A stretch of 64,000 nucleotides of DNA from an uncultured Rickettsiales bacterium (GTDB taxonomy: Bacteria > Pseudomonadota > Alphaproteobacteria > Rs-D84), in assembly GCA_900546225.1 (NCBI GenBank), contig URBZ01000002.1:78411-142410 (forward strand), read 5' to 3'. The notes beneath the pieces were generated by a model, which made no database searches, had not been told where the DNA came from, and saw nothing but the letters and a program-made list of their open reading frames with translations. Below are positions 32,086-33,090 of this stretch, piece by piece; positions within the stretch are counted from its first letter, which is position 1, and every line of letters begins with the position of its first letter. The translations under genes and the position numbers were made by a program.

Positions 32086-33090
32086 TTATGGAAATATGAT
32101 TTTGTCATGGTCGCGTAACAGTAATGTGCAGTCGCGAATATCATTATGTTGTAGCAGCCATAGTATAAATCGTTCTATTCCTAATCCGAATCCGCTGGTC
32201 TGAACGGGGCGGATTTTGCGCATTTCCGAATACCATTTATATCCTGTAGCATCTATCTGATGATAGTCTAACGATTCTTGCAAATCCAGTTGTGTCAACA
32301 CGCGTTGGCCAGAGCCTAATATTTCGCCAATTCCGGCCAGCAAATCTGCAGTCAGCGAAAATTTAGTTCCCTGTTCCTTTGCTTGGTAAAAGGGTACTGC
32401 ACACCATGGCATATTGGTAAGCCATATAAAATCACCATAGCGTTTCAATAGTTCTTGTTCGCCAATTCCCGATATTGCAAAGATTCCTTTGTCCAATTCT
32501 GTTATTGCATCTTTAACATTTGACAACTCAAATACAGCATCTTCAAATCTTATAGAGAGGAACTTTTTATTCAACATCGCATCTAAATGACTTGTTGAGC
32601 CAGCAATATCTGTAATCTCCTGTGTGCAATGTTTTTTTAATGCTGCTACCAGGTGCTTGATATATTCTTCTGCCAGTTGCTTTATATCATCCAATGTTCC
32701 ATAGATTTCAACCTCTGAATGTATAAATTCATTTAAATGACGGGCATCTATTTGTTCGCCACGAAATGATGGCATTATGTAATAAGCGCCTGTGCCAGAT
32801 AGGCGTGTACCTATTTCCAGTGAAAATTGCATAGAATCCGCCAGAAAAACATCGTTTTTGCGTATATTGATTTTTACAGGCAAAGAATCACTACCTAATC
32901 CCATTGGACTGCTGATTGATCCAGTCGTCACAGGAAACATCATAGGCGAAATATTTTTGCCTTTATAAAACTCATACGTTTCATTCAGTATGACAGATAA
33001 AATTTTTGATAGATGCTTATACCAATCGGAAGTTAAAAGGCATTCCAAATGGCCGTTGGGATCTTTATAAGAAGCCGGAGAGCTTATCAT
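32086..33090 (-). CDS. AsnRS/AspRS-type class IIb catalytic core without an anticodon-binding domain (archaeal AS-AR-like amino-acid-adenylating enzyme/amidoligase)
   Basis: 334 aa. Motif 2 YYIMPSFRGEQIDARHLNEFIHSEVE (FRxE...RHLxEF is an AsnRS hallmark). DLLAGIGEILGSGQR. Motif 3 GFGLGIERFILWLLQHNDIRD. No N-terminal OB-fold. Confidence 0.7.
   Translation of the reverse strand: MISSPASYKDPNGHLECLLTSDWYKHLSKILSVILNETYEFYKGKNISPMMFPVTTGSISSPMGLGSDSLPVKINIRKNDVFLADSMQFSLEIGTRLSGTGAYYIMPSFRGEQIDARHLNEFIHSEVEIYGTLDDIKQLAEEYIKHLVAALKKHCTQEITDIAGSTSHLDAMLNKKFLSIRFEDAVFELSNVKDAITELDKGIFAISGIGEQELLKRYGDFIWLTNMPWCAVPFYQAKEQGTKFSLTADLLAGIGEILGSGQRVLTQLDLQESLDYHQIDATGYKWYSEMRKIRPVQTSGFGLGIERFILWLLQHNDIRDCTLLLRDHDKIIFP

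What the first reader, a model, noticed from the sequence alone, without database searches (positions are those of the whole stretch)
32086..33090. Free-standing AsnRS-type class II catalytic core lacking an anticodon-binding domain
All three class II motifs are present (FRGE...RHLNEF, GEILGSGQR, GFGLGIERFILW). The protein begins directly with the catalytic fold. The RHLxEF signature points to AsnRS ancestry, as in archaeal tRNA-independent asparagine synthetases (AS-AR). It does not resemble bacterial AsnA, whose motif is DQWDWE. Such enzymes form aminoacyl-adenylates and transfer them to amine nucleophiles. As the first gene of the methyltransferase/MccF-like operon, it is the candidate adenylate-forming step.
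Basis: partly seen in the sequence, partly recalled or inferred. Interest (0 to 1): 0.6.

Follow-up and report, generated by a model that had tools for sequence, protein, structure and literature searches.

The report
AgnA-like truncated AsnRS, antibiotic operon
This gene encodes the catalytic half of an asparagine tRNA synthetase without its tRNA-reading domain; it is a relative of AgnA from the crown-gall biocontrol antibiotic agrocin 84 and leads a small mobile operon that probably makes a new antibiotic mimicking an activated amino acid.

Summary
Window 32086-33090 (minus strand) is an intact 334-aa class II (Asp/Asn/Lys-type) synthetase core with all three motifs and no anticodon-binding domain. 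It is closer to AsnRS than to AspRS or to archaeal asparagine synthetase AS-AR.

The closest described relative is AgnA, the "agrocin 84 synthetase" of plasmid pAgK84 (45% identity, full length). The neighbours match too:
- Next gene: AgnB1/MccD-like SAM-dependent transferase.
- Fourth gene: AgnC5/MccF-like S66 peptidase.
- Convergent gene: degenerate ProRS-like protein, remotely related to AgnC1.

This is therefore a compact agn-like cluster on a low-GC island beside tRNA-Ser. It is not core asparagine metabolism.

Across 82 related loci from many phyla, 63 carry an MccF-like peptidase and 39 an MccD-like transferase. The partner synthetase (Leu, His, Phe, Met-like, Pro-like, Ala-like) varies, yet the AgnA-type active site stays almost invariant and AsnRS-like.

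I infer that the enzyme acts on a constant Asn-like substrate plus ATP and supplies the P-N or adenylate step of an aminoacyl-phosphoramidate nucleotide antibiotic. The chemistry is untested.

Verdict: new member of a known but biochemically unresolved family. Interest is moderate to high.

The parts
32086..33090 (-). AgnA-family enzyme: AsnRS-type class II catalytic core (334 aa) without an anticodon-binding domain. First gene of the operon.
   Evidence: ORF. PF00152 at E 7.6e-33. 44.9% identity to AgnA, E 4e-104. AF2 model pLDDT 90.7, best fold match AsnRS 1x54. Catalytic residues R110, E112, H118, F122, D249, E256, R263 and R307 conserved.
31238..32068 (-). AgnB1/MccD-like class I SAM-dependent transferase (276 aa).
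   Evidence: 44.8% identity to AgnB1 over 270 aa, E 7.5e-75. Best PDB hit is MccD 5fcd, E 6e-25, full length. 27% identity over 262 aa to E. coli MccD, E 2e-31. Lies within 150 bp downstream of the AgnA-like gene in 27 related loci.
30346..31236 (-). Second class I methyltransferase-fold protein (296 aa), substrate unknown.
   Evidence: Pfam Methyltransf_25/12/11. No Agn or Mcc counterpart by BLAST. Homologues (neighbour family c46) in related loci L008, L025 and L026.
29272..30312 (-). MccF/AgnC5-like S66 serine peptidase (346 aa). Likely self-immunity or processing hydrolase for the acyl-N(phosphoramidate) bond.
   Evidence: Peptidase_S66 N- and C-terminal domains. PDB: B. anthracis Ba3275 at 3e-103, MccF at ~1e-35 to 1e-37, LdcA-type only 1e-7 to 1e-16. 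29% identity to AgnC5, E 2e-39. Triad S/H/E and the adenine-stacking Trp (E. coli W186) conserved. Asp-pocket N220/K247 replaced by E/S.
29227..29257 (-). Terminator-like hairpin just after the S66 stop codon, between the convergent genes.
   Evidence: 14-pair stem plus T tract. This is a consensus match only.
27959..29152 (+). Degenerate ProRS-like protein (397 aa), a remote AgnC1 relative. Candidate acyl- or aminoacyl-transfer partner.
   Evidence: NCBIfam proS 84 bits against a 558-bit cut-off. Best PDB hit is the minimal ProRS 2i4l, 3.8e-14. hhalign against the AgnC1 family: probability 95.4%, E 1.7e-8, 306 columns. Motif 2 reads FFRDM..RTKQL instead of FRDE..REF; motif 3 Arg is kept.
26159..26248 (+). 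tRNA-Ser(UGA) at the left edge of the ~20-kb low-GC island that carries the cluster.
   Evidence: ARAGORN. GC falls from ~0.47-0.49 to ~0.36 between about 26 and 46 kb.

Best explanation
The ORF is an AgnA-family enzyme: an AsnRS catalytic core that has lost its tRNA anticodon-binding domain and works as a biosynthetic enzyme.

It sits with an MccD/AgnB1-like SAM-dependent transferase, a second methyltransferase, an MccF/AgnC5-like serine peptidase and a convergent, catalytically degenerate ProRS-like (AgnC1-like) protein. Together they form a compact, horizontally acquired relative of the agrocin 84 (agn) cluster. The cluster most likely makes a small N-acyl-phosphoramidate nucleotide, a non-hydrolysable mimic of an aminoacyl-adenylate that poisons an aminoacyl-tRNA synthetase.

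Shown here:
- Fold, intact ATP/adenylation residues and AsnRS-type pocket residues.
- Homology and synteny with agn and mcc components.
- Family-wide linkage to MccF-like and MccD-like genes.

Inferred mechanism:
1. The enzyme binds ATP and a constant asparagine-like substrate. Its pocket is invariant whichever synthetase type accompanies it.
2. It adenylates that substrate. By analogy with MccB acting on the C-terminal Asn of MccA, it uses the amide nitrogen to create the P-N bond.
3. The MccD-like enzyme alkylates the phosphoramidate using SAM.
4. The degenerate ProRS-like partner installs or exchanges the acyl (aminoacyl) group on the phosphoramidate nitrogen, as AcmF and SbzA do on sulfamate and sulfonamide nitrogens.
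5. The MccF-like peptidase cleaves the acyl-N bond to protect the producer.

My confidence in the family and cluster assignment is about 0.85. My confidence in the specific Asn-dependent P-N chemistry is about 0.35-0.4.
For: - AgnA identity: 44.9% identity, E 4e-104, full length.
- Synteny with the agn cluster: MT1-AgnB1 44.8% identity; S66-AgnC5 29% identity; ProRS-like to AgnC1 by profile at 95.4%. The agn gene order is agnA-agnB1-agnB2-agnC1...agnC5 ('MccF-like').
- MT1 is a full-length MccD homologue. MccD matches all 36 neighbours of this type.
- In 82 non-redundant loci from Alphaproteobacteria, Clostridia, Bacilli, Actinomycetes, Patescibacteria and Gammaproteobacteria, 63 have an S66 gene within 10 kb (48 within 3 kb) and 39 have the MccD-like gene.
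- These S66 proteins keep the catalytic triad and the MccF-specific adenine-stacking Trp186 (role of W186 from PMC8323819).
- AgnA-family active-site residues are conserved in 75-77 of 77 sequences whatever the partner (LeuRS, HisRS, PheRS, MetRS-like, ProRS-like or AlaRS-like).
- Window L91 and E126 align with E. coli AspRS K198 and D233. E126 matches AsnRS E251. The family also shares the AsnRS-only FY(Q/M) and YxWY motifs.
- The partner synthetase-like proteins are catalytically degenerate: the ProRS-like one lacks the motif 2 Glu and Phe, and four of the six MetRS-like ones (including L025 and L026) lack HIGH and KMSKS. This fits the AcmF/SbzA precedent (PMC12945691).
- Pantoea plasmids carry a RimJ/L-type GNAT fused to an AgnA-like domain next to an MFS pump. 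Locus L043 has an MccC-like pump, an AgnA-like gene, an ATP-grasp-like gene (assigned by eye from the sequence, not scanned) and an MccF orthologue (53% identity, N220/K247 kept), with no MccB. Both suggest the AgnA-type enzyme can stand in for MccB plus MccA.
- The island is mobile-like and not core metabolism.
Against: - No member of the AgnA family has been characterised biochemically in the papers I could reach. The 2021 review states that the agrocin 84 pathway is unknown.
- Agrocin 84 contains no Asp/Asn carbon skeleton, so an Asn substrate implies a nitrogen-donor role that has never been demonstrated.
- The S66 pocket residues equivalent to MccF N220/K247 are not Asp-type in the window (E220/S247) and vary between cluster types. 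The simple 'Asp-NH-AMP is the product' version therefore cannot hold for all clusters.
- The window has no resistant synthetase, exporter, MccB or MccE homologue, so the target and export route are unknown.
- The window ProRS-like protein is linked to AgnC1 only by profile comparison at 13% identity.
- No expression data exist.
Confidence: 0.6

Rival explanations
1. Classical AgnA model (Kim et al. 2006, as summarised in PMC8323819). The enzyme directly binds the final acyl or aminoacyl amide precursor (the 'amino-acid-like' warhead) and couples it to AMP, forming the phosphoramidate in one step. In this model its pocket, not a partner enzyme, chooses the acyl group.
For: This is the published proposal for AgnA. 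The adenylation machinery is complete. It needs the fewest enzymes and would suit minimal clusters that lack any synthetase-like partner (for example L021, L067 and L046).
Against: Pocket residues are invariant in 75-77 of 77 family members, although the clusters carry LeuRS, HisRS, PheRS, MetRS-like, ProRS-like or AlaRS-like partners and their S66 pockets vary. An enzyme that selects Leu-like, His, Phe or Pro acyl groups would be expected to vary at L91, E126 and R263. These are instead AsnRS-type.
Confidence: 0.2
2. Amide synthetase of the AS-A/AS-AR type. The enzyme adenylates a carboxylate (aspartate or a pathway acid) and passes it to ammonia, making Asn or the carboxamide that another enzyme (for example the ProRS-like protein) later joins to a nucleotide.
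For: The best NCBIfam models are 'asparagine synthetase A' NF005055 and NF005053 (E 9e-73 and 1e-70, full length). RefSeq names family members, AgnA itself included, 'asparagine synthetase A'. The architecture (core only, no tRNA domain) matches AS-AR. The warhead of agrocin 84 is an amide.
Against: Scores are below both curated cut-offs. Solved AS-AR is a very weak match (3.8e-5) and is absent from the top 50 fold hits. The RefSeq name is applied to AgnA itself, so it carries no functional evidence. The pocket lacks the AspRS-type Lys (K198) and has the AsnRS-type Glu, favouring a neutral amide side chain over aspartate (the role of these residues is from my own knowledge of AspRS/AsnRS structures). 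The genomic context is never amino-acid biosynthesis.
Confidence: 0.12
3. The gene is not part of an antibiotic pathway. It would be an anti-phage or stress module of the defence island, or a decaying synthetase paralogue with no activity.
For: The island also carries a PDC-S06/AAA_13 candidate defence ATPase and, at its far edge, a Cas9/Cas1 locus. Related islands sit beside KAP NTPase and GmrSD genes.
Against: There is no PADLOC match for the AgnA-like, S66 or ProRS-like proteins. The ORF is intact, the catalytic residues are invariant, and an identical protein is found on five other contigs with the same operon. The one member with a known phenotype belongs to an antibiotic cluster.
Confidence: 0.05

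Closest known systems
AgnA ('agrocin 84 synthetase') of pAgK84, Rhizobium rhizogenes K84
   Same: Truncated AsnRS homologue of the same length and architecture. 44.9% identity end to end. Followed by an AgnB1-type SAM enzyme. Clustered with an MccF-like peptidase and a ProRS-like protein.
   Different: The window cluster has 5 genes, not 17. It lacks the resistant LeuRS AgnB2, AgnC2-C4/C6/C7, the agnD/E genes and the exporter, and it has an extra methyltransferase with no agn counterpart. The host is probably an uncultured gut-type alphaproteobacterium and the cluster is on a chromosomal island. The product is therefore unlikely to be agrocin 84.
Asparaginyl-tRNA synthetase (AsnRS), catalytic domain
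   Same: Best sequence and fold match. Motifs 1-3, the RHLxEF loop, the AsnRS-type Glu at the AspRS D233 position, and the FY(Q/M) and YxWY motifs are shared.
   Different: There is no anticodon-binding OB domain. The flipping-loop region is replaced by a family-specific, nearly invariant TTGS(I/V)SSPMGLGSDSxP(V/I) segment. The gene is not a housekeeping gene.
Archaeal asparagine synthetase AS-AR (P. abyssi, PDB 3p8t) and the NCBIfam PRK06462 'asparagine synthetase A' models
   Same: Also a free-standing class IIb core without a tRNA-binding domain. Two PRK06462 sub-models align over the full length.
   Different: Scores are below the curated cut-offs. The match to solved AS-AR is weak. The context is a secondary-metabolite-like operon, not asparagine supply.
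MccB (ThiF-like adenylyltransferase of microcin C)
   Same: Proposed functional analogue. MccB turns a C-terminal Asn plus 2 ATP into an N-P-linked (iso)asparaginyl adenylate (PMC8323819). Its usual partners MccD and MccF, and in other loci an MccC-like pump and a GNAT, accompany AgnA-like genes.
   Different: The fold is unrelated (E1-like versus class II synthetase). No precursor peptide is evident. In some Vibrio, Photobacterium, Legionella and Marinimicrobium loci, MccB-like and AgnA-like genes coexist.
AcmF / SbzA (synthetase-like enzymes of ascamycin and SB-203208 biosynthesis)
   Same: Both show that synthetase-derived proteins build aminoacyl-adenylate mimics by acylating an -NH2 on a sulfamate or sulfonamide, and that such enzymes have degenerate adenylation motifs (PMC12945691). 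This is relevant to the ProRS-like partner gene.
   Different: They derive from AlaRS and IleRS and depend on aminoacyl-tRNA. The window's AsnRS-like enzyme keeps a complete adenylation site.

Membership tests
AgnA family (agrocin 84 synthetase-like) | AsnRS-derived class II catalytic domain with the anticodon-binding domain missing | tested here: met
   The description of AgnA is in PMC4392301.
AgnA family (agrocin 84 synthetase-like) | Full-length sequence similarity to AgnA itself | tested here: met
   44.9% identity over 336 aa, E 4e-104. tblastn E 8e-90.
AgnA family (agrocin 84 synthetase-like) | Operon partners as in agn: AgnB1-type SAM enzyme directly downstream, an MccF-like AgnC5, and an AgnC1-like protein | tested here: met
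   MT1-AgnB1 44.8% identity. S66-AgnC5 29% identity. ProRS-like to AgnC1 by hhalign only, 95.4%.
AgnA family (agrocin 84 synthetase-like) | Resistant LeuRS (AgnB2) and the Leu-analogue tailoring genes, i.e. an agrocin 84 producer in the strict sense | tested here: not met
   tblastn of all Agn proteins against the 64-kb window finds only AgnA, AgnB1 and AgnC5 homologues.
AgnA family (agrocin 84 synthetase-like) | Formation of a phosphoramidate-linked nucleotide product | not testable with these tools
   Requires biochemistry. This has not been established even for AgnA.
Asparagine synthetase A, archaeal/AsnRS-like type (AS-AR; NCBIfam NF005052-NF005055) | Score at or above the curated equivalog cut-off | tested here: not met
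   245.2 vs 389, 238.3 vs 322, 59.7 vs 309 and 56.1 vs 368 bits.
Asparagine synthetase A, archaeal/AsnRS-like type (AS-AR; NCBIfam NF005052-NF005055) | Close similarity to the solved, characterised AS-AR | tested here: not met
   3p8t scores E 3.8e-5 and covers only residues 20-148. It is not among the top 50 Foldseek hits.
Asparagine synthetase A, archaeal/AsnRS-like type (AS-AR; NCBIfam NF005052-NF005055) | Role in asparagine supply (core-metabolism context; Asp + NH3 + ATP gives Asn) | tested here: inconclusive
   Context argues against it. Activity cannot be tested here. The rest of the genome (asnB, gatCAB) is not available.
Canonical AsnRS | N-terminal OB-fold anticodon-binding domain plus catalytic domain | tested here: not met
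   The alignment starts at model position 129 of 451. The protein has 334 aa, against 434-466 for AsnRS.
Microcin C-type (mcc) system | MccA precursor peptide and ThiF-like MccB | tested here: not met
   No MccB homologue in the window. No precursor peptide was looked for beyond that.
Microcin C-type (mcc) system | MccD-type SAM transferase and MccF-type S66 peptidase with an adenine-stacking Trp | tested here: met
MccF (Asp-specific) in the strict sense, for the operon's S66 gene | Asp-recognising pocket residues N220 and K247 | tested here: not met
   The window S66 has E and S at these positions. The residue roles are from my own knowledge of Agarwal et al. 2012; the residue identities in E. 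coli MccF were checked.

The most novel reading that the evidence does not exclude
The AgnA-like enzyme, the MccD-like transferase and the MccF-like peptidase form an ancient, phylum-spanning module. The module would make microcin-C/agrocin-type phosphoramidate warheads without any precursor peptide. The AsnRS-derived core would use free asparagine plus ATP to create the P-N bond, in convergence with MccB. Interchangeable, catalytically degenerate synthetase-like partners (ProRS-, MetRS-, AlaRS- or HisRS-like) would then set which amino acid is mimicked, and so which synthetase is poisoned. On this reading the window's five-gene cluster is the minimal natural system for that chemistry and encodes an undescribed inhibitor from a gut-type alphaproteobacterium.
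Probability: 0.35. Interest if true: 0.8.

Novelty: new member of a known kind. Interest (0 to 1): 0.55.

Why it matters
How the N-acyl-phosphoramidate bond of agrocin 84 is made has been open since the cluster was sequenced in 2006. The 2021 review still calls the pathway unknown. A five-gene relative containing only the AgnA-, AgnB1/MccD-, AgnC5/MccF- and AgnC1-like genes reduces the problem to a set that can be reconstituted in vitro.

The family survey found about 385 matching loci in 185,579 species-representative genomes. Their partner synthetases are interchangeable. This points to a large, mostly unmined reservoir of aminoacyl-tRNA-synthetase inhibitors, some in human- and animal-gut bacteria.

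The survey also shows that the RefSeq label 'asparagine synthetase A' on these proteins is misleading.

Tried and rejected
- A genome-contig scan with the single protein found nothing. The alignment-based rescan worked.
- Literature searches for MccF plus asparagine synthetase, AsnRS-like paralogues, synthetase-like plus S66, specificity residues and phosmidosine gene clusters gave no paper on this family beyond agrocin 84.
- The primary AgnA paper (Kim 2006) and the T. thermophilus AsnRS structure paper are not held. Their content is cited second-hand or from my own knowledge.
- I first read the ProRS-like gene as a resistant ProRS. I rejected that because motif 2 is degenerate and it groups with the AgnC1-like class, whereas a separate canonical-motif ProRS-like class exists in other loci.
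- I considered that the MccF-like enzyme always cleaves a constant Asp-NH-AMP intermediate to release adenosine phosphoramidate. This is weakened because its N220/K247-equivalent pocket varies with cluster type.
- BLASTP of the ProRS-like protein and the second methyltransferase against Agn proteins was negative.
- A PADLOC scan gave no defence-system assignment for the operon.
- The sigma-70 promoter scan was no better than shuffled sequence, so no promoter is claimed.
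Full report
**Observation**

The coordinates 32086-33090 delimit an intact minus-strand ORF of 334 aa. It matches Pfam PF00152, class II tRNA synthetases D/K/N, over residues 29-323 (E 7.6e-33). NCBIfam AsnRS models align it to positions 129-442 of 451, so the N-terminal anticodon-binding domain is absent.

All quoted motifs are present. An AlphaFold2 model built on 35 homologues is confident (pLDDT 90.7, pTM 0.91). Its best structural matches are AsnRS catalytic domains (P. 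horikoshii 1x54, TM 0.87), followed by archaeal and eukaryotic AspRS.

**Which synthetase it derives from**

By sequence, AsnRS structures score about 1e-18 to 1e-15, AspRS about 1e-10, and the solved archaeal asparagine synthetase AS-AR only 3.8e-5.

I aligned the protein with authentic E. coli AspRS and AsnRS, fetched:
- R110, R307, Q88, D249, E256 and R263 correspond to AspRS R217, R537, Q195, D475, E482 and R489. The adenylation machinery is therefore complete.
- L91 falls at AspRS K198.
- E126 falls at AspRS D233 and AsnRS E251.
- The FY(Q/M) and YxWY motifs are shared with AsnRS only.

From my own knowledge of the AspRS and AsnRS structures, K198/D233 against a non-basic residue plus Glu is the main Asp-versus-Asn discriminator. 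The pocket therefore looks asparagine-type.

The two best NCBIfam models are labelled 'asparagine synthetase A', yet both are missed by their curated cut-offs (245 vs 389 bits; 238 vs 322 bits).

**Identity**

A tblastn search of annotated plasmids gave the key result. The protein is 44.9% identical over its full length to agnA, 'Agrocin84-synthetase', of pAgK84. [quoted passage not shown] It was proposed to attach the pentanamide precursor to AMP through the phosphoramide bond, and the pathway was still called unknown in 2021 (PMC8323819). RefSeq annotates AgnA itself as 'asparagine synthetase A', so that label is not evidence for asparagine synthesis.

**The operon**

Downstream on the same strand, with gaps of 17, 1 and 33 bp, lie three genes:
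- A 276-aa SAM-dependent enzyme.
- A 296-aa methyltransferase-fold protein.
- A 346-aa S66 peptidase, followed by a strong terminator-like hairpin.

The first is 44.8% identical to AgnB1. Its best solved relative is MccD, over the full length (E 6e-25; 27% identity to E. coli MccD, E 2e-31). MccD transfers the 3-amino-3-carboxypropyl group of SAM to the phosphoramidate of microcin C.

The S66 protein is 29% identical to AgnC5, annotated 'MccF-like'. It is far closer to the MccF clade than to LdcA. It keeps the Ser-His-Glu triad and the Trp that stacks on adenine in MccF (W186 role). The residues I recall as recognising the Asp side chain in E. coli MccF (N220, K247; identities verified) are E and S here.

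The convergent 397-aa gene is a ProRS-like protein with a degenerate motif 2 (FFRDM...KQL). Profile comparison relates it to AgnC1 (probability 95.4%, 306 columns), which others had already noted to be remotely ProRS-like.

Nothing else from the agn or mcc systems is detectable in the window. There is no resistant LeuRS, no MccB, no exporter and no MccE.

**Family survey**

The protein belongs to a well-conserved family of ~334-aa proteins. An alignment-driven scan of one genome per species returned 385 matching loci, of which 80 were fetched. Five further loci came from metagenome look-ups.

Independently of gene calling, 63 of 82 non-redundant loci have an S66 gene within 10 kb (48 within 3 kb). 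39 have the MccD-like gene, 27 of them within 150 bp downstream. An S66 gene is roughly a single-copy gene per genome, so this is far above chance.

The loci span Alphaproteobacteria MAGs from rumen and gut, Clostridia, Bacilli, Streptomyces/Nonomuraea, Patescibacteria, Vibrio/Photobacterium, Legionella, Providencia/Rahnella and Xenorhabdus.

Clustering of neighbours shows a variable further component:
- LeuRS at about 40% identity to AgnB2.
- HisRS.
- PheS/PheT.
- MetRS-like proteins, four of six lacking HIGH and KMSKS.
- AlaRS-like and HisRS-like proteins.
- Two classes of ProRS-like protein: one with canonical motifs and one degenerate (the window's class).
- ATP-grasp ligases, P-loop and APH-type kinases.
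- PNP_UDP_1 phosphorylase-family proteins. This would fit the known need of MccD for an MTA nucleosidase.

**What varies and what does not**

Across 77 family members, the pocket and catalytic residues of the AgnA-type enzyme are conserved in 75-77 sequences, whichever synthetase accompanies it. These include L91, E126, R263, R110, E112, H118, F122, D249, E256, R307 and the family-specific loop TTGS(I/V)SSPMGLGSDSxP. In contrast, the substrate-pocket positions of the associated S66 peptidases change with cluster type.

This pattern is hard to reconcile with the classical idea that AgnA itself selects the Leu-like acyl group. It suggests that the enzyme handles a constant, Asn-like substrate, while a partner enzyme and the immunity peptidase deal with the variable acyl group.

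Two natural 'experiments' support a microcin-C-like logic:
- Pantoea plasmids encode a RimJ/L-type GNAT fused to an AgnA-like domain beside an MFS pump. GNAT acetylation of the alpha-amino group is the MccE2 immunity mechanism.
- Locus L043 has an MccC-like pump, an AgnA-like gene, an ATP-grasp-like gene (assigned by eye, not scanned) and a 53%-identical MccF orthologue with N220/K247 intact, but no MccB.

**Proposed mechanism (inference)**

1. The enzyme binds ATP and asparagine, or a very similar molecule, and forms the adenylate.
2. As MccB does with the C-terminal Asn of MccA through a succinimide and a second ATP, it converts the amide nitrogen into a phosphoramidate nitrogen.
3. The MccD-like enzyme alkylates the phosphate.
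4. The degenerate ProRS-like partner transfers an acyl or aminoacyl group onto the nitrogen. This parallels AcmF and SbzA, which acylate sulfamate and sulfonamide nitrogens and likewise have crippled adenylation motifs.
5. The MccF-like peptidase hydrolyses the acyl-N bond in the producer.

How an Asp/Asn-derived intermediate would be exchanged for another acyl group is unresolved. The window's target synthetase is unknown.

**Rivals**

I weigh three rivals in the report sections: the classical direct-ligation model, an AS-AR-like amide synthetase, and a non-antibiotic role. PADLOC gives no defence assignment for these genes.

**Setting**

The cluster lies in a ~20-kb low-GC segment (0.36 against ~0.47) that starts at tRNA-Ser(UGA). 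An identical protein with the same operon occurs on five other assembled contigs.

The chromosomal flanks resemble those of uncultured gut Alphaproteobacteria MAGs (66-74% DNA identity). Those MAGs carry a different AgnA-type island, with an integrase and a canonical-motif ProRS-like gene, beside the tRNA-Thr region. The module is therefore mobile and diversifying.

**Novelty**

The gene is a new member of a known family (AgnA, 2006) whose chemistry has not been established. In the library searched here, the only survey I found reported agn-like clusters from one Ensifer strain and some Actinobacteria. I found no description there of the breadth seen here, the constant MccD-like/MccF-like partnership or the invariant AsnRS-type pocket. 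The library is incomplete, so prior description elsewhere cannot be excluded.

Noticed in passing
window 45353-49264 (minus strand): A Cas9-like protein (982 aa, with RuvC and HNH domains) lies next to Cas1, so this is a compact type II CRISPR-Cas locus at the right edge of the low-GC segment. I did not look for an array or tracrRNA.
   Followed up: no
window 39435-43105 (minus strand): A 766-aa AAA_13 ATPase matches the PADLOC candidate defence family PDC-S06 (305 bits), with weaker PrrC/AriA similarity. It is followed by a 450-aa DUF2130 protein. This is probably a defence gene pair in the same island.
   Followed up: partly
window 26000-46000: A low-GC (~0.32-0.39) segment begins right after tRNA-Ser(UGA) at 26159-26248. 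It looks like a genomic island, but I searched for neither an integrase nor att repeats.
   Followed up: partly
window 35422-36405, 37041-37727 and 37727-38953 (plus strand): Two lysine-rich proteins of 327 and 408 aa have similar 'YDxNG' repeat patterns; only the 327-aa one has a weak MORN_2 Pfam match, the 408-aa one has none. They flank a DnaJ-domain protein. Their function and any relation to the operon are unknown.
   Followed up: no
L006 (RUG653 proteobacterium MAG) 10001-15400 vs window 27959-33090: The operon is mosaic. The MccD-like and S66 proteins are 88% and 90% identical to the window's, but the AgnA-like protein is only 65% and the ProRS-like protein 70% identical. L006 also lacks the second methyltransferase. 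This suggests recombination or module swapping inside the operon.
   Followed up: partly
L001/L012 and relatives (for example L001 6808-12097): A sister cluster type carries two ProRS-like genes. One is degenerate (398 aa, overlapping the start of the AgnA-like gene). The other has canonical motifs 2 and 3 (425 aa) and lies next to an integrase. It may be a resistant ProRS, which would imply a ProRS-targeting (phosmidosine-like) product.
   Followed up: partly
L089 (Pantoea agglomerans plasmid) 8413-11236: A 531-aa fusion of a RimJ/L-type GNAT with an AgnA-like domain is followed by an MFS transporter. It looks like a two-gene toxin-synthesis, immunity and export unit.
   Followed up: partly
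L043 (Peptococcaceae MAG) 8715-13556: This mcc-like operon lacks MccB. It has an MccC-like pump, an AgnA-like gene with a ~26-residue insertion in the family loop, an ATP-grasp-like gene (by eye, not scanned) and an MccF orthologue (53% identity to E. coli MccF, N220/K247 kept).
   Followed up: partly
L028, L051, L052 and L063 (Marinimicrobium, Legionella, Vibrio, Photobacterium): AgnA-like genes here sit with an MccB-like ThiF enzyme. In some of these loci they also sit with a ~90-aa ORF, a YcaO protein and LuxC/D/E-like genes. This is a distinct, more complex cluster type that I did not analyse.
   Followed up: no
window 25127-26038 (plus strand): A family 6 glycosyltransferase (Pfam E 3e-22) lies immediately upstream of the tRNA-Ser. 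This is uncommon in bacteria.
   Followed up: no
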